From assembly GCA_033809295.1 (NCBI GenBank), contig JAPXLY010000002.1, forward strand, positions 1 to 58,337: a DNA stretch of 58,337 nt. Reading direction: 5' to 3'. The notes under the pieces are model-generated. The model had not been told where the DNA came from, made no database searches, and was given only the letters and a program-made list of their open reading frames with translations. Positions 1,963-57,499 of the stretch are shown here, piece by piece. The stretch comes from Bacillota bacterium (GTDB lineage Bacteria; Bacillota; SHA-98; UBA4971). The position numbers and the translations under genes were made by a program. Within the stretch, counting starts at the first letter, position 1; every line of letters starts with the position of its first letter.

Positions 1963-3030
1963 TCAGTTACAGGCCTTTTTGAGCAGAGAGTATACTTCGC
2001 TATTCTTAACGCGCGGGTTTTCTTCCGCATAATCAAAGGCAGTTTTGCCCTCGTTCGACTTGAGCTTGCCATCAGCCCCGGCATCGAGCAGCACCTCGAC
2101 AACCTCAGGGTTATAACTGCATCTTGCCGCATTCATCAGTGGTGTCAAACCGCCTTCGCCGGTTGTGCCGGATTTCATGCTCTTCGCTATCTCTGCCTTG
2201 ACCTTTTCAAGAGTCAGAAGGTGCATCATGGGATAAACATACATATTCCATTTGCATTCGTGCCTAGCGTTGACATCAGCGCCGGCTGCTATCAATGCCT
2301 TGATAACATCGGGGTCTTGGTTAAATGCTGCAGCACCCATCAGCGGTGTCCAACTGTTATCGTCTCTCGCATTGACTTCAGCGCGTGCTGCCACAAGCGT
2401 CTCAATAATCTCGGCGTTACGGGCAAGTATCGCAGCTATCATCAAAGGTGTCATACCTAGTTCGTTTCTTGAATTGACTTTGGCGCCACCGGCGATCAAC
2501 GCCTCGACAACCGCGGGGGAATCGGAATATGTCACTCCATGATCCAGCGGTGTCCAGCCGTTATTGTCTCTTGCATTCACTTCTGCTTCTGCTGTTATCA
2601 ACGTTGTTATGATCTCGGGGCAGTTATTGGATTTTGCAGCGATCATCAGGGGTGTCGTACCTTCTGAATCTCTCGCATTTACTTTAGCACCTGCTCCTAC
2701 CAGTAAATTGATAATCTCCGGGTTATTAGTGTATAGTGCAGCCATCCTTAGCGGTGCCAGGCCGCGTTCGTCTTTCGCATTCACTTCGGCGCCTGCCTCT
2801 ATTAATATCTTGATGACCTCAAGGTTTGCAAAAGGTGATGCCACTGCGTCTATTAGTGGTGTAAAACCTTCTCTGCTTTCCGCATTGACATCAGCGCCTG
2901 CTGCTATTAGGGCGCGTACCTCGGCTGCGGTCCACCAAGGATTGAAAGGCAGCAAAGAAGGGGCAGCCTCGGCAATCAAACAGGGGAATAGAGCAAGAGC
3001 CAACACGCTTAGAACGAAGATTCTTTTCAT
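1963..3030 (-). CDS. secreted ankyrin-repeat protein (about 8 repeats)
   Basis: N-terminal signal peptide MKRIFVLSVLALALFPCLIAEAAP. Repeated G-x-TPL(M/I)xAA...(L/V)(I/L)xAGAxVNA units (GFTPL, GLAPL, GTTPL, GWTPL, GMTPL, SWTPL, GLTPL, GKTAF). The start at 3030 has better AAGGAG spacing than 3036. Confidence 0.85.
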   Translation of the reverse strand: MKRIFVLSVLALALFPCLIAEAAPSLLPFNPWWTAAEVRALIAAGADVNAESREGFTPLIDAVASPFANLEVIKILIEAGAEVNAKDERGLAPLRMAALYTNNPEIINLLVGAGAKVNARDSEGTTPLMIAAKSNNCPEIITTLITAEAEVNARDNNGWTPLDHGVTYSDSPAVVEALIAGGAKVNSRNELGMTPLMIAAILARNAEIIETLVAARAEVNARDDNSWTPLMGAAAFNQDPDVIKALIAAGADVNARHECKWNMYVYPMMHLLTLEKVKAEIAKSMKSGTTGEGGLTPLMNAARCSYNPEVVEVLLDAGADGKLKSNEGKTAFDYAEENPRVKNSEVYSLLKKACN

Positions 3031-18927: not shown

Positions 18928-20445
18928 GTGTCAACAATACTTATCAACGGCGGGACTCTTACTTATGAGGATGTCGTAGGGGTTGCGCGCTATCATAAAC
19001 ATGTGGGAATTGCCGGTGATGTGCGGGAGAAGGTTGACAGGAGCTGCCAGGCAGTAGAGTCTATCTTAACCCAGGACAGAGTAATCTATGGAGTCAACAC
19101 CGGCTTCGGACATCTTGCCTGCGTTAGAATCTCTCGTGATGAGCTCTGTAAGTTGCAGGAGAACCTTATCATGAGCCATGCGTCAGGGACAGGCGCTCCT
19201 TTTCCTGATGAAGTGGTAAGGGCCATGATTCTTTTGCGTGCCAACTCCCTTGCTAAAGGCCTGTCCGGGGTTAGATACGAACTAATCGAGACTTTAGTGG
19301 CTCTGGTCAACCATGATATTTGCCCGATTGTCCCTGAGCAAGGTTCCCTTGGTGCTTCAGGCGATCTTGCTCCCCTCGCGCACCTGGCCCTTGGCGTCCT
19401 CGGGAAAGGGAAGGCCAGGATGGGCGGTGTGCTGATGGACGCGGACGAGGCTCTGCGGAGAGCCGGAATTTCATCTCTCAAGCTTATGCCCAAAGAAGGC
19501 TTGGGCCTCATAAACGGCACACAAGCCATGACTGCTTTGGGTGCCATTGCACTCTACGACGCCTTAGTGATGGCTGTGACTGCTGATGCTGTTGCGTGCC
19601 TATCCATGGAAGCTTTGAGAGGAATTCCCGATGCTTTCCGCGCGTGTCTTCACCAAGCCAGACCTCATCCTGGCCAGACGGAATGTGCAGAGCTCCTTAG
19701 CCGGTTGCTGCAAGGAAGCCGGCTTGTGAGTGCTCCGGGCGAGCTGCGAGTGCAGGATGCATATTCACTCAGGTGTATACCTCAAGTTCATGGTGCCACC
19801 AGGGATGTCCTGGGATATGTAAGCAAAGTAATCAATACTGAGATAAACTCGGCCAGCGATAATCCCTTGGTTTTCCCTGACGGCAGCGTGATATCAGCAG
19901 GCAATTTCCATGGCCAGCCTGTGGCGTTCGCCATGGATTTCCTATCAATCGCCGTTGCCGAGCTTGGAAACGTATCCGAGAGGAGAATCGAGCGGTTACT
20001 GAACCCGACTCTATCGCAGCTTCCGGCTTTTCTCACTGCGCACAGCGGTATCAACAGCGGCTTCATGATTCCCCATTACACTGCTGCATCCTTAGTATCT
20101 GAGAATAAGGTCCTTTGTACGCCTGCGAGCATAGACTCTATTCCGGTATCCGCATCCCAGGAAGACCACGTTAGTATGGGGACTACCGCTGCGCGCAAGG
20201 CCAGGGCAGTCGTGGGGAATGTTGCCCGTGTGCTTGCTATTGAACTCATGTGCGCTTGTCAGGCGGTAGAGTTTAGGGGGCCTGAAAAATTAGCCTCTCT
20301 GACTCGCAAGATCTACGACTTGGTTAGGGACGTCGTGCCTCCTCTTGAAGATGATCGCTGGCTATATCCTGACATTGAAGCAATCACTGAGTTGGTTGTA
20401 AAAGGCGAAATAGCACAAGCGGTCAAACCTGCCAACCGTCGCTGA
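18928..20445 (+). CDS. hutH: histidine ammonia-lyase
   Basis: MIO-forming GASGDLAPLAH triad context, NTGFG, QDAYSLRC, and Ser-His at the position of the HAL specificity pair (NLIMSHASG, compare LVLSHAAG in Pseudomonas HAL). GTG start with AAAGGGAG upstream. Confidence 0.93.
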   Translation: MSTILINGGTLTYEDVVGVARYHKHVGIAGDVREKVDRSCQAVESILTQDRVIYGVNTGFGHLACVRISRDELCKLQENLIMSHASGTGAPFPDEVVRAMILLRANSLAKGLSGVRYELIETLVALVNHDICPIVPEQGSLGASGDLAPLAHLALGVLGKGKARMGGVLMDADEALRRAGISSLKLMPKEGLGLINGTQAMTALGAIALYDALVMAVTADAVACLSMEALRGIPDAFRACLHQARPHPGQTECAELLSRLLQGSRLVSAPGELRVQDAYSLRCIPQVHGATRDVLGYVSKVINTEINSASDNPLVFPDGSVISAGNFHGQPVAFAMDFLSIAVAELGNVSERRIERLLNPTLSQLPAFLTAHSGINSGFMIPHYTAASLVSENKVLCTPASIDSIPVSASQEDHVSMGTTAARKARAVVGNVARVLAIELMCACQAVEFRGPEKLASLTRKIYDLVRDVVPPLEDDRWLYPDIEAITELVVKGEIAQAVKPANRR

Positions 20446-20582
20446 GGAATGTGCTAGACTTGTCCAGGTAACATGCCGGGCTCATCCAGCCGTTGTATCA
20501 GCCGGTCCACCGGTTTGGCTTTGGCTAATGTGCCGGCTTTGTTTCTGTATTGCAGCGCCAGGATAGTGGGAGGGTGGTTAGG

Positions 20583-21548
20583 ATGAGGCTAAGGTTTGCA
20601 AAGCTCAACCCGGCGGGTAATATCACCATACTTGTCCTGGATCCGGTCCACGAGTCTATCCATGCAAAGGTGGCAGCGGATCTGATGAACCCTGCTGTCC
20701 TTGGCGGAGAGCAGGTGGGCTTTGTTACGCTTATGTCAGAGGGCCCGGTCGCAGCCTCCATGCGAATGATGGGTGGTGAGTTCTGCGGTAATGCAGTCAG
20801 ATCCCTTGGAGCCTATCTGGCGTCAATAAGGCATCCGGCAATGGGAGTGACGAAAGGCAATACCAACCTATTGCAAGGACTTATCCAAGTACAAGGCCTG
20901 GATGAGCCTATCCTCGTCGAGGCTGAACTGGACCAAGAGGAGCTGCCGCATTGGGCATCATGTGCGTTTCCCGGCGTGCCTGAGGTCGAGTTCTATTTCG
21001 TGGAAGCTCTCTCATGGACTGCAGGCGGGCTTGACAAAAACATTCGCATCCTGCCGTGTCTCAGCCCTAAAGATGTGCTCGAATCATGGCTGGGAGAGGT
21101 TTCCCTGAGGCTGCGGCCGACTGTTGTGGCACTGGTCAGATTGGAGAGAATCACACACATAGTTGTGGATGCAAGGGACTATCGTATGGAAGAGGATGTT
21201 CTCTTGGAGCTGTGCGATACTTTAGGGCTGGAAGATGAGGCATGTGTCGGGGTCATGTTCCGCCAGGGATTTGATGAGATAGTGCCTCTGGTATATGTAG
21301 AAGCCACTGATACGTTTGTTTGGGAGTCAAGTTGTGCCTCGGGCAGTGTCGCTGTTGCCCTGGCCTATGCAACCGCGCGCGGAGAACCGGGGAGCTACAG
21401 CTTTAAGCAGCCTGGTGGGACTCTATCCGTCACTGTTACGCCACCCAATACGGGCGGGGCTCATTCAGCTCCTTATGCTACGGTCAGTGGAGAGGTGAGA
21501 CTGGTAGCTGAAGGCACTGTTTTCATTGACACTGTCTTCATACATTGA
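20583..21548 (+). CDS. DapF-fold (PLP-independent) racemase/epimerase-like protein, substrate unknown
   Basis: Two half-domains, each with a Cys in the DapF-type context (GGEFCGNAVRSLG and WESSCASGSVAVALA). GGAGGGTGG lies upstream of ATG 20583. Confidence 0.65.
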   Translation: MRLRFAKLNPAGNITILVLDPVHESIHAKVAADLMNPAVLGGEQVGFVTLMSEGPVAASMRMMGGEFCGNAVRSLGAYLASIRHPAMGVTKGNTNLLQGLIQVQGLDEPILVEAELDQEELPHWASCAFPGVPEVEFYFVEALSWTAGGLDKNIRILPCLSPKDVLESWLGEVSLRLRPTVVALVRLERITHIVVDARDYRMEEDVLLELCDTLGLEDEACVGVMFRQGFDEIVPLVYVEATDTFVWESSCASGSVAVALAYATARGEPGSYSFKQPGGTLSVTVTPPNTGGAHSAPYATVSGEVRLVAEGTVFIDTVFIH

Positions 21549-21559
21549 CACTTCTTGCT

Positions 21560-22133
21560 GGAATTCCGCAAGGCATAGAGCGTAACATGTAGTCAACTAA
21601 CGTTATTGCTGCAAGGGAGCAATTGGAACTGGCTGTTGGATATTGGAAAATGGTGTCATCACACTGTAATGAGTTACATGATTGTGACAAGGGATCAATT
21701 ACCACAGCATACCATCTTCGGACCGGCTCACTGGGTGGGCCAAGCAACCGCATGGGAGTCATTAAATCTGCTTGAATGGCCCACTGGATGGGCCACTCAA
21801 CTACACCGAAGTCATCGGATCCCCTAAGATGGCTCACTGGGTGGGCCACACTCCCTGCGGAAGCCCTTAGATCCCCTTGAGTGGCTCCCCTGCATGGGCC
21901 ATTCAACTACACGAAAGCCATCGGATCCGCTTGACTGGCTCTCAGGGAGAGCCAATCGACCGTCTGGACGCTTTCAAACTCCCCTGAATGGCTCTTTTGC
22001 TGAGCCACGTTGAAGTAGGATACCCTATAAGGGAGCTTTGATATGCTCCATGCGACATCACCCTGATGGCAAGGACAGGATAGGCTCTCTTAAAAGTCAG
22101 CGGGGTGATTCGGGATAAGACAAAGAGCATATA
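21560..22133 (+). repeat. copy 1 of a two-copy modular element (5' block, six 53-nt hairpin modules, 3' block); candidate structured RNA
   Basis: Alignable by eye with 38238-38730. Hairpins TGGCYC..GRGCCA start at 21724, 21777, 21830, 21882, 21936 and 21989. U.G pairs are valid only on the + strand. See findings. Confidence 0.9.
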
Positions 22134-22304
22134 AGGGGATATCCTTCAGAAAACGCTTAATTTGGGGGAAAGGGGGCTTTATATGCTCTTTCATAGATGG
22201 GTAGGACTCCCATCTAACCTGACGGCTACAACCAGAGTGCCAGTTGAAACGCATACCCAGGGGAAACGGCGTTTGCGGAATTTCTGATTAGGCCGGCAGG
22301 CATC

Positions 22305-22333
22305 TTGCAGTCTGCTGACAAATAGTGTAGTAT
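22305..22333 (+). promoter_or_regulatory. candidate sigma-A promoter of the FMN riboswitch-ribU transcript
   Basis: TTGCAG (22305-22310), 17 nt, TAGTAT (22328-22333), about 25 nt before the riboswitch P1. Confidence 0.5.
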
Positions 22334-22354
22334 TTAGATAAAACCAATAGCCGA

Positions 22355-22500
22355 CAGTAGATCTTCGGGGCAGGGTGAGGCTGGAGGCTCCAGCCAATTC
22401 CCGACCGGTGGTGAAGCCGAAAGGCAAGTCCACGAGCCGCAAATGCGGTTGAGCCGGTGTAAAACCGGTACCGACGGTAAAGTCCGGATGGGAGAAGGTC
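22355..22500 (+). promoter_or_regulatory. FMN riboswitch (RFN element) aptamer
   Basis: Matches the RFN core as I remember it from the B. subtilis ribD leader: ATCTTCGGGGCAGGGTGA...AATTCCCGACCGGTGGT...AGCCGGTGTAAAACCGGTACCGACGGTAAAGTCCGGATGGGAGAAGG. Confidence 0.85.
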
Positions 22501-22548
22501 GCAAGCTGACGCAACGTGCTTGCCATGACTTGAAACTCTCTGAAAGAG

Positions 22549-22590
22549 CAGCCCTGAGGTCTAGTGCCCAGGGCTCTGTTGTTTCTTTCA
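22549..22590 (+). terminator. riboswitch expression-platform terminator
   Basis: CAGCCCTG ... CAGGGCT stem followed by CTGTTGTTTCTTTC. Confidence 0.65.
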
Positions 22591-22624
22591 GGCAGCACAC
22601 ATTGCTCAGGCGGTATGCCGGAGC

Positions 22625-22758
22625 GCTATGCCGGGCAAAGCCGGGGCGCTGCGCCAGGTAAGACCAGGGTGCTATGCCAGTTAGACCAGGGTGCTTTGCC
22701 AGTTAGACCGGAGTGCTATGCCAGTTAGACCGGAGTGCTATGCCGGGTAAGACAAGAG
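22625..22758 (+). repeat. about six tandem copies of a 22-nt unit (TGCTATGCCAGTTAGACCRGRG) in the ribU leader
   Basis: Units read directly: gctatgccgggcaaagccgggg / cgctgcgccaggtaagaccaggg / tgctatgccagttagaccaggg / tgctttgccagttagaccggag / tgctatgccagttagaccggag / tgctatgccgggtaagacaagag. Confidence 0.9.
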
Positions 22759-22804
22759 GCCGGAGCCCGGGCAACCAAGGCTGTAAAGGAGGTTGCCTTC
22801 ACTT

Positions 22805-23401
22805 ATGAACAGGAGAACCAGAACACTTGTAACATTAGGTGTACTTGCGTCTATAGCAGTGCTTTTGTCCCTTGTCAACTGGCCGCTATTTCCATCAGCT
22901 CCGCATTTGCGCTTCGAGACGGCTGACGTGCCTGTGTTAATTGCAGGATTCGCTTTTGGGCCGGGCGCGGGATTGATGGTGACTTTCATTATGGCGGTCT
23001 TGATGGCTGCCATCACAGGCCTTGACGGGGCAGTCGGAGCCTTGATGCATTTCCTGAGCACAGGCAGCCTGGTGCTGGCTGCAAGCTTTGTGTACAGACG
23101 ATATCATACGCTTGGCGGTGCTATAGCAGGTCTCATAGCAGGCACTATCGCACAGACTCTGGTAATGCCTCTTGTGAATCTGGCAATAATCCCCTTAATC
23201 TACGGATTCTCCAGACAGCAAATAGTAGCCATGCTCCCTATACTGTTTGCCTTTAATGCTGTCAAAGCCGGGCTCAGTTCGATTCTCACGTTTCTTGTAT
23301 ACAAGCGCGTATCATGGTTGCTCAAGGGTTTGGTTCGAGACAGCGAAGATGCCGGGATTATCACGGCCAGGCAGTGCCCGGCAAGGCAAACCCGGCGCTA
23401 G
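22805..23401 (+). CDS. ribU: ECF-transporter S component, probably the riboflavin-specific RibU
   Basis: ~198-aa, six-helix hydrophobic protein (ETADVPVLIAGFAFGPGAGL). The substrate is inferred from the FMN riboswitch upstream. AAGGAGG lies 12 nt before ATG 22805. Confidence 0.75.
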   Translation: MNRRTRTLVTLGVLASIAVLLSLVNWPLFPSAPHLRFETADVPVLIAGFAFGPGAGLMVTFIMAVLMAAITGLDGAVGALMHFLSTGSLVLAASFVYRRYHTLGGAIAGLIAGTIAQTLVMPLVNLAIIPLIYGFSRQQIVAMLPILFAFNAVKAGLSSILTFLVYKRVSWLLKGLVRDSEDAGIITARQCPARQTRR

Positions 23402-38125: not shown

Positions 38126-38237
38126 CTGCTATCCCGTAAGAAAATACTGTAAAGTATGAAACGCATAATGTCAAGCCATTCGACAGACTAGTCGACAAGC
38201 CAGTCGACAAGCAGTTGCCTGCTGTAACCCTGCGAGC

Positions 38238-38730
38238 GGAAATTCCGCAAGTCATAGAGCGCAATATGTGCTGAGCCGGCGTAAATACTCAAAGGGAGCA
38301 ACTGGAAGAGGGGAGCAACCGGAAGAGGCTATTGGATTTTCGGAAATACTATCATGGCATTGTAATGAGTTGTCTGACTCGGACAAAGGATCGATTACCA
38401 AGGCATTCCATCTTCGGAGTGGCTCACTGGATGGGCCAATCGGTAGCCGAAAGGACCTCAAATCCGCGTGAGTGGCTCTCGGGACGAGCCACTCGGCGAT
38501 GGATCCGCTGTGAAGTCTACTTGACTGGCTCTCAGGGAGAGTCGGTCGGCAGTTGGAAGCACATTAGAACTGCTTAAGTGGCTCTTCTGCCGAGCCACGT
38601 TGGACTAAGATACCTATTACCTATTAAGGGAGCTTTGGTATGATCCGTACGACGTCACCCTGATGGCAAGGACAAGATAGGCTTTTTTGAAAGTCGATGG
38701 GGTGATTCGGGGTAAGACAGAAAGCATATA
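38238..38730 (+). repeat. copy 2 of the modular element (5' block with an internal 17-nt duplication, four 53-nt hairpin modules, 3' block); candidate structured RNA
   Basis: Alignable with 21560-22133. Hairpins start at 38420, 38473, 38526 and 38579 (exact 53-nt period). See findings. Confidence 0.9.
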
Positions 38731-39169
38731 TTGGTTTATGTCATTGCCGCAGGGGATGTGTTATTATATGGATAAGGCCGGCTGGAGAGCAGGATCAGAT
38801 GGATGTACGTTCATATCAGGAGCCACGAACGTAGTGCTGTTTTGAATCTACCGAACAGGCTCCGGATAGCTAGCGCGGATTCCGGCATTTCGTGAGGCAT
38901 GGTTACGACAGGGGCTTCATATGAGATCGAATGCAAGGACTGATGCAGGGACTGATGGAAGACCTTCCCAGAGTCATTATGTTGTTCAAGGAGGACACCG
39001 AGGCTTTCCTGGACGCACTGACCCGGATGATCCGTATGATTCGTGAGATTGAGGAATGACAGACTGATCATCCTGAGAAGGAATCCGCGGCCTGAGGGAG
39101 AACTAAAGTAAATGGCAACAATGACAGCCCCATGAAGGGGCGACTTCCGAACTGCATAGGAGGCCTGCC

Positions 39170-40763: not shown

Positions 40764-40970
40764 GTGCTGTGCCGCGGTGCGGCACCACCGTGCTATATCA
40801 CAGTGCTGTATCATGGCGCTGTACCATGGCGGGGCGTACCACAGCGTTGTATCGCGGCACTACATCACATCACTGTGCCGTCGTGCTGCATTACAGTACT
40901 GCACACGATACTGTACTACAAGGCTGTATCATAGCACTGTTCTGTGGCGCTGCATTACAATGCTCTGCCC
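40764..40970 (+). repeat. degenerate ~13-nt tandem repeat tract (GYGCTGYAYYAYR, about 16 units)
   Basis: Read directly: gtgctgtgccgcg gtgcggcaccacc gtgctatatcaca gtgctgtatcatg gcgctgtaccatg ... gcgctgcattaca atgctctgccc. Confidence 0.85.
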
Positions 40971-41106
40971 TAAGTATGAGTTCATGAGACCGTTGTTCTC
41001 TCCCACATGGTGTTAACGCAGCTTGCTTGAATCGCAAAACCGGTCGCCGTCTTCGGCGAAACCGGCAGCTATTGGAGAAGTTCAACGGCCTCATGGCGAC
41101 CTACTT

Positions 41107-41194
41107 AGTGCTATGCTACGGTGCTATGCTACGGTAGCTGTGCTGTGTTACGGCGTGGGTTACGGCACCGCACTACGTGTGCTACTGTACCATG
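41107..41194 (+). repeat. second block of ~13-nt repeats (GTGCTATGCTACG type)
   Basis: agtgctatgctacg gtgctatgctacg gtagctgtgctgtgttacg gcgtgggttacg gcaccgcactacg tgtgctactgtaccatg. Confidence 0.8.
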
Positions 41195-52961: not shown

Positions 52962-53048
52962 CTTAGCCCGGACCGGTTAGGGCTGTGTCAGGCAAGGGAA
53001 ATCAGGGTCGAAACTGAATAAGTGCTACAGACGAAATGTAGACCAAGC

Positions 53049-53141
53049 GGAGAGATGGCTGAGTGGTCGAAAGCGCTCGCCTCGAAAGCGAGTGGGCGGG
53101 TAGCCCCTGCCCCGTGAGTTCGAATCTCACTCTCTCCGCCA
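53049..53141 (+). tRNA. tRNA-Ser (anticodon CGA), CCA encoded
   Basis: Acceptor GGAGAGA/TCTCTCC, anticodon stem CTCGC/GCGAG with loop CTCGAAA, long variable arm, T loop TTCGAAT. Confidence 0.9.
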
Positions 53142-53156
53142 CCATTGACTTTTTGC

Positions 53157-53250
53157 GGAGAGGTGGCTGAGTTGGTTGAAGGCGCCCGCCTGGAAAGTGG
53201 GTAGGCAGAAGCTCTCTGTCTCGCGGGTTCGAATCCCGCCCTCTCCGCCA
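53157..53250 (+). tRNA. tRNA-Ser (anticodon GGA), CCA encoded
   Basis: Acceptor GGAGAGG/CCTCTCC, anticodon stem CCCGC/GTGGG with loop CTGGAAA, long variable arm, T arm GCGGG-TTCGAAT-CCCGC. Confidence 0.9.
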
Positions 53251-53284
53251 TATTTTTCTAAGTCTGTTTCCTTTGTGAAGGTTT

Positions 53285-53553
53285 GGTCGTGCTAGACGGG
53301 GAGGTAGCGGTGCCCTGAACCCGCAACCCGCTATAGCGGGGTTGAATTCCCGCCCGAGGCCGACCCTTCGTGGGGCCTGGCCCTGTTAAGTGGCGAAGAA
53401 GACTGGGTCCTGCGCAACAGAAGTCTGTGAACCCCGTCAGGACCGGGAGGTAGCAGCGGTAAGCGGAATGTTCTGTGTGCCGCAGGGGCGCCTGGCCGGA
53501 GCAGGCTGGCAGGTTACCGCCTGGGGAGGGCGTTCGAAGGTGGGTGCACGACC
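53285..53553 (+). ncRNA. ffs: signal recognition particle RNA, long Bacillus type with Alu domain
   Basis: GGTCGTGCTAGACGGGGAGGTAGCGGTGCCCTG... at the 5' end, GTCAGGACCGGGAGGTAGCAGCGGTAAG...GTGCCGCAGGG (domain IV) and ...GAAGGTGGGTGCACGACC at the 3' end. These parallel B. subtilis scRNA as I remember it. Confidence 0.9.
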
Positions 53554-56649: not shown

Positions 56650-57165
56650 ATGGTGGCAGGCGCGCATAGGCGAACCTCGAAGGAATCCGGCGCCGGGGAC
56701 CAGGCGATGTCACGTTCTTGCAGGCAGGGGATATTTGACCGGGCGCGAAGCACTGCAGACGACAGTATGGTAAACGGTACATGTGAGCAGGTCTCTGAGT
56801 TATTCGGGGCTAAGGCAATATTCGGGATTCGTTGGGAGAGAACAGTTGACACCCTGCTGAACACTGCATTCCAAGGGATACGTGGGGCCTTTCGTGCAGC
56901 GCGAAACAGGGAGGGGCATGTTCGAAACGGAGAACTCTCTAACTATGAAGCCGCACAAATCGCCAAACAGGAATGGCTGTCTGCTGTTGAGTACTTCCAT
57001 GAGGTGTCTGAACCGGATCTTGTGGATTATGCTGTTTATTCACTTCACGCGGCTGAGAGAAAGTACATGTATCTTCTTGACAAGGCTCGCAAGCACTATA
57101 CCTCACTTTCGTATGAAAGGTGTCCGGTTGGCGATCACACATTGCAGAACCGTGTTCGAAAATAG
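56650..57165 (+). CDS. yaaL: DUF2508 (YaaL-like) protein with a long N-terminal extension
   Basis: The C-terminal part AKQEWLSAVEYFHEVSEPDLVDYAVYSLHAAERKYMYLLDKARK fits the DUF2508 pattern. The position after recR matches Bacillus. The start was chosen at ATG 56650 (GGGAGGA 5 nt upstream) but could be internal. Confidence 0.65.
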   Translation: MVAGAHRRTSKESGAGDQAMSRSCRQGIFDRARSTADDSMVNGTCEQVSELFGAKAIFGIRWERTVDTLLNTAFQGIRGAFRAARNREGHVRNGELSNYEAAQIAKQEWLSAVEYFHEVSEPDLVDYAVYSLHAAERKYMYLLDKARKHYTSLSYERCPVGDHTLQNRVRK

Positions 57166-57499
57166 AACACGGTTTCCAGAAAAACTCCCGCAGCGGCAAA
57201 ATGTACACCATATTTTGGAGAATCGGCTGAAAAGGCCTGAATTCCCTAGGCACGGTGATCGAATTTCGCACACTTGAGCCAGTTGGTGTGGTCGAATTAC
57301 TGCAAGTCCAAAGTTCGCTTCTGGACATGTTATCGAACATCCGGCACAGAATCTAAGACAGAATCTAAGAATGCGGTCGAGGGTCGACCCCTTTATAGGA
57401 TCTGTGGGCAAAAACATGTGACATCAGCATATACAAGCACATAGTGACATATATAGACTGTAGGAATGTCCATAAAAACTTGCCTCAGGGGGTGAGGCC

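What the first reader, a model, noticed from the sequence alone, without database searches (positions are those of the whole stretch)
21560..22191. Copy 1 of a ~0.5-kb modular hairpin-array element inside a 1.25-kb gene-free interval
There is no credible ORF between the DapF-like gene (ends 21548) and ribU (starts 22805). Positions 21560-22133 have a three-part layout. (i) A ~165-nt 5' block (GGAATTCCGCAAGGCATAGAGCG ... CACTGTAATGAGTT ... GACAAGGGATCAATTACCA ... CCATCTTCGGA). (ii) Six tandem modules starting at 21724, 21777, 21830, 21882, 21936 and 21989 (period 52-54 nt). Each module opens with a 6-8 bp hairpin of the form TGGCYC-loop-GRGCCA, followed by a ~33-nt linker ending in CTTGA/CTGAA. 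(iii) A ~125-nt 3' block (CGTTGAAGTAGGATACC ... AAGGGAGCTTTGATATGCTCC ... TCACCCTGATGGCAAGGACAGGATAGG ... GGGGTGATTCGGG ... AGAGCATATA). The 3' block is closed by a 13-bp stem, AAAGAGCATATAA (22122-22134) with TTATATGCTCTTT (22179-22191). The inner stem bases differ between modules yet stay complementary (TGGCCCA/TGGGCCA, TGGCTCTC/GAGAGCCA, TGGCTC/GAGCCA). Three hairpins (21724, 21830, 21882) contain a T.G pair that is a legal U.G only if the + strand is the RNA. I cannot match this to tRNA, rRNA, tmRNA, RNase P, 6S, T-box, or any riboswitch or large ncRNA (OLE, GOLLD, ROOL, HEARO, raiA) that I can recall, although my recall of those consensus sequences is limited.
Basis: seen in the sequence. 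Interest (0 to 1): 0.85.

Follow-up and report, generated by a model that had tools for sequence, protein, structure and literature searches.

The report
Transposase-less insertion-sequence relic with hairpin array
The "hairpin-array element" is real, but it is most likely not an RNA gene: it is a decayed, transposase-less copy of an insertion sequence whose gene has been replaced by a variable tandem array of palindromic 53-bp units, a known kind of bacterial repeat.

Summary
There are six ~53-nt hairpin modules between conserved 5' and 3' blocks, a second copy lies at 38237-38739, and Rfam gives no hit.

The interpretation as a novel structured RNA does not hold. Copy 1 is longer than reported (21558-22286). 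It ends in 14-15-bp terminal inverted repeats: CTGGAATTCCGCAAG on the left and TTGCGGAATTTCTG on the right.

In metagenomic relatives, the same ends and the same 5' and 3' blocks flank a 425-aa DDE transposase gene (Pfam DDE_Tnp_1). Together they form a 1.7-kb insertion sequence (L045 136-1837). A subfamily with 57% transposase identity keeps the same inverted repeats.

The window copies are internal-deletion derivatives. They keep about 75 nt of the transposase interior and its last codons and stop. One short relative (L039) is flanked by a 9/10 matching 10-bp direct repeat.

Module number varies from 3 to at least 12 between copies. The module stems are 13-bp palindromes with compensatory changes, but G.T and A.C pairs are equally common, so no strand is favoured. 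The 5' block shows almost no RNA covariation.

The closest analogues are pneumococcal BOX elements and the BrickBuilt MITE. I rate this a new member of a known kind, of low interest. The origin and any role of the array remain open.

The parts
21558..21572 (+). Copy 1 left terminal inverted repeat, CTGGAATTCCGCAAG (family consensus CAGGAATTCCGCAAG)
   Evidence: Coordinates. The same repeat ends the full insertion sequences L045, L048 and L049.
21560..21707 (+). Copy 1 left end.
   Evidence: blastn 80% over 148 nt to L045 136-1837; 12-sequence alignment A2.
21708..21719 (+). Start of the relic-specific junction ACAGCATACCATCTTCGGA, which runs on a few bases into module 1. It is shared by the short relics (W1, W2, L039, L042a, L043) and absent from full-length insertion sequences.
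   Evidence: Alignment A2.
21720..22029 (+). Six tandem ~53-bp modules. Each has a ~13-bp imperfect palindrome with a 3-nt loop and a ~23-nt linker carrying GGAAGCC..TCAGATCC.
   Evidence: nhmmer hits; hairpin table; pair counts; TRF.
22000..22075 (+). Remnant of the transposase gene interior (reference nt 592-667, around the DGTE motif). It overlaps the last, degenerate module.
   Evidence: Local alignment; reference sequence L045 727-802.
22066..22286 (+). Copy 1 right end (reference nt 1479-1699). It comprises the last transposase codons and stop (..CAAGGACAGGATAG) followed by about 205 nt of non-coding right end. The deletion joint lies at a shared CAAGGA.
   Evidence: blastn 85% over 221 nt.
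22122..22191 (+). Local 13-bp inverted repeat inside the right end (AAAGAGCATATAA / TTATATGCTCTTT). It is only partly kept in L045, is poor in L042b, and its 5' arm is deleted in L039, L043 and L040.
22273..22286 (+). Copy 1 right terminal inverted repeat, TTGCGGAATTTCTG
38237..38251 (+). Copy 2 left terminal inverted repeat, CGGAAATTCCGCAAG
38241..38400 (+). Copy 2 left end (reference nt 5-147), with a 17-nt internal duplication at 38294-38328.
38416..38619 (+). Copy 2 array of four modules, the second of them partial.
38592..38672 (+). Copy 2 remnant of the transposase interior (reference nt 594-667).
38663..38739 (+). Copy 2 right-end fragment. Alignment to the reference stops at nt 1546 (38730), and similarity to copy 1 fades by about 38739. 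The rest of the right end and the right inverted repeat are missing, so this copy is truncated and presumably immobile.
   Evidence: No significant similarity beyond this point against shuffles. No right-repeat match nearby.

Best explanation
Both copies are non-autonomous relics (MITE-like internal-deletion derivatives) of a ~1.7-kb insertion sequence that encodes a 425-aa DDE transposase of the IS4-like superfamily.

Shown:
- The lost coding region is replaced by a tandem array of ~53-bp units. Each unit carries a ~13-bp palindrome.
- Copy 2 has lost its right end.

Inferred:
- Copies with two intact ends can be moved in trans by a transposase from a full-length copy elsewhere in the genome, which recognises the 15-17-bp inverted repeats.
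- The array grows and shrinks by slipped-strand mispairing or unequal recombination. This explains the 3 to at least 12 units in different copies and the runs of identical neighbouring units.
- Copy 1 is an old insertion inherited at the racemase-ribU spacer. I expect the element to have no function of its own beyond incidental effects on neighbouring transcription.
For: CTTGCGGAATTCCTG.

(2) L042 carries a DDE_Tnp_1 fragment (PF01609, E=5.5e-11) between the 5' block and the 3' block.

(3) Full-length 425-aa homologues (83-87% identical) sit between the same blocks in L044 and L045. L045 136-1837 is a complete 1702-bp insertion sequence with perfect 17-bp inverted repeats, which are the only long-range inverted repeat spanning the gene.

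(4) Copy 1 aligns to reference nt 3-150, 592-667 and 1479-1699. Copy 2 aligns to nt 5-147, 594-667 and 1479-1546.

(5) A subfamily with 57% transposase identity (P0130; L046-L055), seen at several different genomic sites, keeps the same inverted repeats and is 1727 bp long.

(6) Copies lie at unrelated loci: racemase-ribU, azlC-DUF3842, upstream of a tRNA, upstream of an ArsR-like gene, and upstream of an amidohydrolase-like gene. A relative with 74% racemase identity (L038) lacks the element at the syntenic site.

(7) The 472-bp relic in L039 is flanked by TGTGAAAAGT and TGTGAAGAGT, a 9/10 match. L040's flanks share CAGGCCG.

(8) There is no Rfam hit and almost no covariation in the 5' block. 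G.T (27) and A.C (32) pairs in module stems are equally common.

(9) The window has no transposase gene (tblastn E>0.5). The copies are therefore non-autonomous.
Against: - Flanking direct repeats are clear only in L039 and partial in L040. L042b, L043, L045, L048, L049 and copy 1 show none. The duplication length, and even whether one is regularly made, is not established.
- The modules have no detectable homologue in the full-length insertion sequence (nhmmer found none), so their origin is unexplained.
- Module palindromes keep complementarity through compensatory changes at two positions. This hints at some selection or homogenising process that a purely neutral relic does not require.
- At 729 bp, copy 1 is larger than a typical MITE.
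- Transposase family placement is weak: NCBIfam IS4 42 bits against a cutoff of 115.
- Nothing here tests transcription or mobility directly.
Confidence: 0.88

Rival explanations
1. The element is a novel large structured non-coding RNA gene on the + strand. The 5' and 3' ends would pair into a closing helix, and the hairpin array would be a variable domain.
For: - The single-sequence folds are more stable than shuffles: z = -4.9 for copy 1 and -3.7 for copy 2.
- The module stems keep pairing through compensatory changes.
- The 5' and 3' termini are complementary, with a G.U-compatible change in copy 1 and in L040.
- All copies seen are co-oriented with the downstream gene.
Against: - The same ends and blocks flank a transposase gene in full-length copies at unrelated loci and in a 57%-diverged subfamily. 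The terminal complementarity is therefore a transposon inverted repeat.
- Part of the '3' block' is transposase coding sequence including its stop codon.
- The consensus fold of the 5' block is -5.6 kcal/mol with a covariation term of -0.06.
- There is no G.T over A.C asymmetry.
- No promoter or terminator was found at the ends, and there is no Rfam match.
- Copy 2 lacks the whole 3' terminus.
Confidence: 0.04
2. The element is an exapted relic. It is IS-derived, but the hairpin array has been co-opted. It could act as RNA (3'-UTR stabiliser, insulator or attenuator between the racemase operon and ribU, or a protein-binding decoy) or as DNA (an array of sites for a dimeric DNA-binding or nucleoid protein).
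For: - The element is retained at the same racemase-ribU spacer in at least three lineages with 83-87% racemase identity: the window, L037 and L032/L040.
- Palindromes are maintained by compensatory changes. At module columns 11-21, T-A is replaced by C-G in 7 modules. At columns 13-19, A-T is replaced by T-A in 7 modules. None of 500 shuffles reached the observed pairing or covariation score.
- The conserved linker motif GGAAGCC..TCAGATCC recurs in most modules.
- BOX modules are reported to influence expression of neighbouring genes (PMC3049150).
Against: - Module number is unconstrained, from 3 to at least 12, and adjacent units are often identical. This is typical of neutral minisatellite turnover.
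- Modules are paralogues, so the compensatory counts are not independent events.
- Loop sequences are not conserved: TGG, AGG, GGG or CAC, and loops without GGA throughout L042a. This argues against a CsrA-type decoy.
- The hairpins are not followed by U-runs.
- L038 does without the element.
Confidence: 0.07
3. The element is a degenerate CRISPR-like or other spacer-repeat array.
For: It has regular ~53-nt spacing of a palindromic repeat.
Against: - The 'spacers' (linkers) are homologous to one another.
- The repeats themselves diverge.
- No cas genes were seen among the flanking genes scanned.
- The array sits inside insertion-sequence ends.
Confidence: 0.01

Closest known systems
BOX elements of Streptococcus pneumoniae and S. 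suis (boxA - boxB(n) - boxC; PMC3049150)
   Same: - Same architecture: a conserved 5' module, a variable-number tandem array of a ~45-55-bp unit that folds on its own, and a conserved 3' module.
- Terminal inverted repeats resemble those of a resident insertion sequence.
- Intergenic location, with length variation driven by gain and loss of the middle module.
   Different: - The end modules here are much larger (150 and ~220-290 bp, against 59 and 50 bp), and they can be traced directly to a full-length insertion sequence, including scraps of its transposase gene.
- The host is different (uncultured Bacillota known only from metagenome assemblies).
- I did not test sequence similarity to BOX.
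- Genome-wide copy number is unknown; only two copies are seen in 58 kb.
BrickBuilt MITE of Porphyromonas gingivalis (minisatellite inside a MITE; PMC4596501)
   Same: A minisatellite embedded between 'leader' and 'tail' units that carry small inverted-repeat ends. It is intergenic and present in multiple copies.
   Different: - The BrickBuilt unit is 23 nt without spacers. Here the unit is 53 bp with a 13-bp palindrome plus linker.
- The parent insertion sequence is identified here.
IS4-superfamily insertion sequences (Pfam DDE_Tnp_1) and their deletion derivatives
   Same: - DDE_Tnp_1 transposase with DGT, CADA.Y and RRWDIEN motifs.
- A single ORF between short terminal inverted repeats, with a total length of ~1.7 kb.
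- A candidate 10-bp flanking duplication in one copy, within the 9-12 bp I recall for IS4 (from memory, not checked here).
- A hairpin (TCCCCGCG...CGCGGGGA) overlies the ribosome-binding site just upstream of the ATG. I recall the same device from IS10 and IS50 (from memory, not checked here).
   Different: - The transposase scores far below NCBIfam cutoffs for IS4, IS701, ISAs1 and IS1182.
- It has no relative of solved structure by sequence.
- The untranslated ends are unusually long (~215 and ~205 bp).
Large structured bacterial RNAs (OLE, GOLLD, ROOL, HEARO, raiA)
   Same: Size (0.5-0.7 kb), intergenic location, many predicted hairpins.
   Different: No covariance-model match, no covariation in the conserved blocks, and the blocks are transposon ends.

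Membership tests
MITE / non-autonomous IS derivative | Terminal inverted repeats that match those of an autonomous insertion sequence | tested here: met
   Copy 1 has CTGGAATTCCGCAAG and TTGCGGAATTTCTG. L045 has CCAGGAATTCCGCAAGC and GCTTGCGGAATTCCTGG. L049 has GCAGGAATTCCGCAA and TTGCGGAAATCCTGC.
MITE / non-autonomous IS derivative | Subterminal sequence homologous to the parent insertion sequence, with the transposase gene missing | tested here: met
   blastn of L045 136-1837 against the window gives nt 3-150 and 1479-1699 in copy 1. tblastn with the transposase finds nothing (E>0.5).
MITE / non-autonomous IS derivative | Target-site duplication flanking the element | tested here: inconclusive
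   L039 has a 9/10 match over 10 bp and L040 has 7/10. Copy 1, L042b, L043, L045, L048 and L049 show none.
MITE / non-autonomous IS derivative | Several copies per genome, at unrelated, mostly intergenic sites, with presence/absence differences between relatives | tested here: met
   Two copies in 58 kb, five distinct loci among the fetched contigs, and the element is absent from the syntenic spacer of L038. A whole-genome count was not possible.
MITE / non-autonomous IS derivative | Small size (usually under ~600 bp) | tested here: inconclusive
   L039 is 472 bp, L043 ~580 bp, copy 2 ~503 bp (truncated), copy 1 729 bp and L040 ~960 bp. The larger copies exceed the usual range because of the array and inserts.
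IS4 family (transposase) | DDE_Tnp_1 catalytic domain | tested here: met
   PF01609 E=5.5e-11, 43 bits against a cutoff of 23. The precomputed annotation gives PF01609 on all homologues.
IS4 family (transposase) | Score above the curated NCBIfam IS4 equivalog cutoff | tested here: not met
   NF033592 scores 42 bits (P0124) and 56 bits (P0130) against a cutoff of 115. IS701, ISAs1 and IS1182 models are also far below their cutoffs.
BOX element (Streptococcus) | A - B(n) - C modular layout with a variable tandem middle module and inverted-repeat ends | tested here: met
   Module counts are 6, 4, 3, 5, 5, 6 and at least 12 between conserved end blocks. This is a match of architecture only.
BOX element (Streptococcus) | Sequence homology to boxA, boxB and boxC | not tested
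   No BOX models were available in the tools. The different size and host make membership unlikely.
Known structured RNA families (Rfam 15, including OLE, GOLLD, ROOL, HEARO, raiA) | Covariance-model match | tested here: not met
   No match at gathering scores over the window, and none at E<=10 over 21450-22360.
CRISPR array | Conserved repeats separated by unrelated spacers | tested here: not met
   The linkers are mutually homologous (alignment A3, mean column identity 77%).
CsrB/RsmZ-type CsrA decoy RNA | GGA motif conserved in the hairpin loops | tested here: not met
   The 3-nt loops are TGG, AGG, GGG or CAC. All five L042a modules and some modules of L043 and L037 have loops without GGA (CAC or CAG).

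The most novel reading that the evidence does not exclude
The tandem palindrome array is not junk inside a dead transposon but a selected module. The relic would have been exapted at the racemase-ribU spacer and elsewhere. The 13-bp hairpins plus the conserved GGAAGCC..TCAGATCC linker would act as a repeated binding platform for a host protein, as RNA or as DNA. This would explain why complementarity is restored by compensatory changes, and why arrays are found in every transposase-less copy but in no full-length insertion sequence.
Probability: 0.08. Interest if true: 0.5.

Novelty: new member of a known kind. Interest (0 to 1): 0.2.

Why it matters
Mainly as a correction. A region that looks like a large, ornate, multi-hairpin RNA, and that Rfam cannot name, turns out to be a transposon relic. 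It should be masked or annotated as a mobile-element remnant rather than pursued as a new RNA class.

It also documents an apparently unnamed IS4-like insertion sequence with unusually long ends, in uncultured Bacillota known only from metagenome assemblies. It adds another example, besides BOX and BrickBuilt, of a minisatellite housed inside a MITE. These arrays break short-read assemblies: several contigs here end inside one. They could also serve as strain-typing markers.

Tried and rejected
- **Rfam.** Gathering thresholds over the whole window and E<=10 over 21450-22360 gave nothing for the element.
- **Genome scan with a 3' block pattern.** TGATGGCAAGG N{20,40} GTGATTCGG returned 31 loci. 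None showed any blastn similarity to the element, so they are taken as chance matches. The cause is that this stretch is the transposase stop region and is deleted in many relics.
- **Viral contig scans.** Patterns for the 5' and 3' ends found 0 hits.
- **Exact-sequence lookup of the racemase-like protein.** No record, because I used the wrong start codon.
- **CsrA-decoy idea.** I proposed this from the GGA/GGG loops and dropped it because loop sequence is not conserved.
- **Strand inference from G.T pairs.** Rejected: 27 G.T against 32 A.C.
- **Conserved RNA structure in the 5' block.** RNAalifold gave only 18 weak pairs and a covariation term of -0.06.
- **Origin of the modules from the insertion sequence.** nhmmer with the module profile found nothing in L045. 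Only the last, degenerate module merges into the transposase remnant.
- **Right end of copy 2.** No significant similarity beyond 38730-38739. The apparent MAFFT alignment there is noise.
- **Solved structures.** phmmer of the transposase against PDB sequences found no relative.
- **Plasmid collection.** tblastn found only 33-36% matches annotated 'transposase' in Clostridium.
- **Literature search for the inverted-repeat sequence.** Only unrelated primers matched.
- **Promoter and terminator scans.** Nothing convincing at either end of either copy or in L045.

Full report
**1. The observation**

Reading 21400-22900 confirms the quoted blocks.
- Tandem Repeats Finder reports a 53-nt period over 21766-21941.
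- A profile built from the modules finds six units at 21720-22029.
- The 13-bp inverted repeat lies at exactly 22122-22134 and 22179-22191.
- Repeat finding and a pairwise alignment show a second copy at about 38237-38739. It is ~78% identical and about 100 nt shorter in the array; the module profile finds four units there.
- No ORF in the interval is credible.
- Rfam gives nothing for the element at gathering scores, or at E<=10 over 21450-22360.
- Rfam does find an FMN riboswitch at 22357-22503 in front of ribU, in the same 'gene-free' interval.
- Single-sequence folds are more stable than shuffles, z = -4.9 and -3.7.

The described features are real and non-random.

**2. Finding relatives**

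A first pattern taken from the most conserved stretch of the 3' block returned 31 loci from the genome collection. None showed any blastn similarity to the element, so I take them as chance matches.

The upstream 'DapF-like' gene is a CntK_N/histidine-racemase-like protein (PF26317) next to an aromatic amino acid ammonia-lyase. Its close homologues (72-87% identity) come only from short metagenomic contigs.
- Contigs for P0002 and P0003 carry the same 5' block right after the racemase gene. Long module arrays follow and run to the contig ends.
- The 74%-identical relative L038 has the syntenic racemase - FMN riboswitch - ribU spacer but not the element.

A 5' block pattern informed by four sequences then pulled out L039, L040, L042 and L043 from the metagenome collection.

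**3. The element is longer and ends in inverted repeats**

It runs through GGGGGAARGGGGGCCCTATATGCTCTTTCATAGATGGGCAAGACTCCCATCTAA... to CTTGCGGAATTCCTG. That terminus is the exact reverse complement of the 5' terminus CAGGAATTCCGCAAG. Copy 1 therefore spans 21558-22286.

The stretch I had used as a search pattern (TGATGGCAAGG...GGGGTGATTCGGG) is absent from L039, L040 and L043. This explains the failed genome scan.

**4. The blocks are the ends of an insertion sequence**

In L042 a 253-aa ORF lies between the 5' block and the 3' block. It is a DDE_Tnp_1 transposase fragment (PF01609, E=5.5e-11). Full-length 425-aa homologues exist (P0122-P0125 at 83-87% identity, P0130 at 57%).

Their contigs show the transposase gene preceded by the 5' block and followed by the 3' block.
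- L044 9783-11330 aligns to the reference at 87% over 1548 nt.
- L045 136-1837 is a complete 1702-bp element with perfect 17-bp terminal inverted repeats. These are the only long-range inverted repeat spanning the gene.
- The P0130 subfamily, seen at several different genomic sites, keeps the same terminal repeat (GCAGGAATTCCGCAA / TTGCGGAAATCCTGC), 1727 bp end to end. It also keeps several leader motifs.

An RNA gene that happened to be hit by a transposon would not travel with the transposase like this. The blocks are the transposon's own ends.

**5. Anatomy of the window copies**

Coordinates below are relative to L045 136-1837.

Copy 1 consists of:
- reference nt 3-150 (21560-21707);
- a short relic-specific junction;
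- six modules (21720-22029);
- reference nt 592-667 (22000-22075), a scrap of the transposase interior around its DGTE motif;
- reference nt 1479-1699 (22066-22286), which is the last codons, the stop and ~205 nt of non-coding right end.

The joint between the last two pieces lies at a shared CAAGGA.

Copy 2 has the same joints. The two copies therefore descend from one deletion derivative. Copy 2 stops aligning at reference nt 1546, and nothing significant follows. It has lost its right end.

L039, L043 and L040 carry a larger right-hand deletion. L037 and L040 keep the ribosome-binding-site hairpin, and L037 also keeps the first 43 nt of the ORF. There is no transposase gene anywhere in the window.

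**6. Mobility signatures**

Copies occur at five unrelated loci, and the element is absent from L038's syntenic spacer.

The 472-bp relic in L039 has perfect 15-bp ends flanked by TGTGAAAAGT and TGTGAAGAGT, a 9/10 match. L040's flanks share CAGGCCG. The other copies show no flanking duplication. The duplication is therefore suggestive, not established.

**7. The modules**

A linker with GGAAGCC..TCAGATCC follows.

On 25 distinct modules:
- 83% of cells are paired, against 24-42% when the partner is slid;
- two positions show compensatory replacement, each in 7 modules (T-A replaced by C-G; A-T replaced by T-A);
- none of 500 shuffles reached the observed pairing or covariation score.

The modules are paralogues, so these are not independent events.

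G.T pairs (27) are no more common than A.C pairs (32), so the palindromes do not favour the + strand as RNA. Loop sequences vary (TGG, AGG, GGG, CAC), which removes my passing idea of a CsrA decoy.

Unit number is 6, 4, 3, 5, 5, 6 and at least 12 in different copies. Runs of identical neighbours occur in L037, and a 106-bp dimer repeat occurs in L032/L040. This is classic minisatellite turnover.

No module is detectable in the full-length insertion sequence. Only the last, degenerate unit merges into the transposase remnant. The origin of the array is open.

**8. Test of the RNA reading**

A 12-sequence alignment of the 5' block, including both insertion-sequence subfamilies, gives a consensus fold of only -5.6 kcal/mol with a covariation term of -0.06. 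Conservation is in primary sequence, as expected for transposase-binding and regulatory DNA. Promoter and terminator scans find nothing convincing at the element's ends.

**9. Comparison with what is known**

The architecture matches pneumococcal BOX elements: boxA, a variable number of boxB units, boxC, and inverted-repeat ends resembling a resident insertion sequence (PMC3049150). It also matches the BrickBuilt MITE of Porphyromonas gingivalis, a minisatellite between leader and tail units with small inverted-repeat ends (PMC4596501).

It differs in three ways. The end blocks are much larger. The parent insertion sequence is demonstrable. The unit is a 53-bp palindrome plus linker.

The transposase belongs to the DDE_Tnp_1 (IS4-like) superfamily. 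It scores far below every curated NCBIfam cutoff and has no relative of solved structure by sequence. The insertion sequence may be unnamed, but ISfinder could not be queried.

**10. Verdict**

The finding is a real, correctly described repeat. It is a transposase-less insertion-sequence relic with an internal palindromic minisatellite, not a new structured RNA. I rate it a new member of a known kind, of low interest.

The residual open point is why every transposase-less copy, and no full-length copy, carries the array, and why its palindromes stay complementary. I give about 8% to an exapted function.

Noticed in passing
window 22357-22760: An FMN riboswitch (100.6 bits) lies at 22357-22503. 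A tandem array of a 22-nt unit (GCCAGTTAGACCAGAGTGCTAT, 4-5 copies) follows at 22610-22760, between the riboswitch and the ribU ribosome-binding site. L040 has a different 11-12-nt tandem array (GGAGCAGTATGC-like) at the same position.
   Followed up: partly
L038 1440-2060; L040 3560-3770 (- strand); window 57154-57170: A second, unrelated repeat family. About 12 copies of a ~20-nt palindromic motif (GTGCTCGAAAATAGAGCAC / GTGGTCGAAA...), in both orientations, fill the racemase-ribU spacer of L038, which lacks the IS relic. The same motif occurs inside the 330-nt insert of L040/L032. One 2-mismatch match is in the window, which is not above chance.
   Followed up: partly
window 40780-41150: Another stretch without long ORFs, downstream of the second ECF S-component gene. 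It has 13-nt tandem repeats (GTGCTATGCTACG; CACAGTGCTATAT) and a 37-nt repeat family. The GTGCTATGC core resembles the 22-nt repeat upstream of ribU.
   Followed up: no
window 2239-2822: Six direct repeats with an exact 102-nt period (61-74% identical). This is probably a 34-residue protein repeat in a coding region.
   Followed up: no
window 20550-21548 and 18928-20445: The 'DapF-like' gene is a CntK_N / histidine-racemase-like protein (PF26317 in the precomputed annotation; it scores below threshold for DAP_epimerase). It is adjacent to an aromatic amino acid (histidine-type) ammonia-lyase. The pair is conserved in all close relatives.
   Followed up: partly
window copies 1 and 2; L039, L042, L043, L044, L045, L046, L048, L049: Every relic or full insertion sequence whose neighbours I examined (ten copies) has the same orientation as the gene immediately downstream. 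Upstream genes are on either strand. This could reflect target or orientation bias, or selection.
   Followed up: no
L042 1-1737: A partial relic (left end plus 5 modules, no right end) directly abuts a second copy. The second copy's transposase gene has lost about 380 nt just after its start, leaving a 253-aa ORF. This is a nested or tandem arrangement of two decayed copies.
   Followed up: partly
L045 296-353; L044 9945-10000; L037 4540-4600: A hairpin (GAGTCCCCGCGCC...GGAGCGGGGAAC) ends just before the transposase ATG and covers the likely ribosome-binding site. I think it damps translation from read-through transcripts.
   Followed up: no
window 53047-53551: Two adjacent long-arm tRNA genes (78% identical, 109-nt period) lie immediately upstream of a large SRP RNA (198.9 bits). 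A large-type SRP RNA fits a Bacillota host (my inference from memory, not tested).
   Followed up: no
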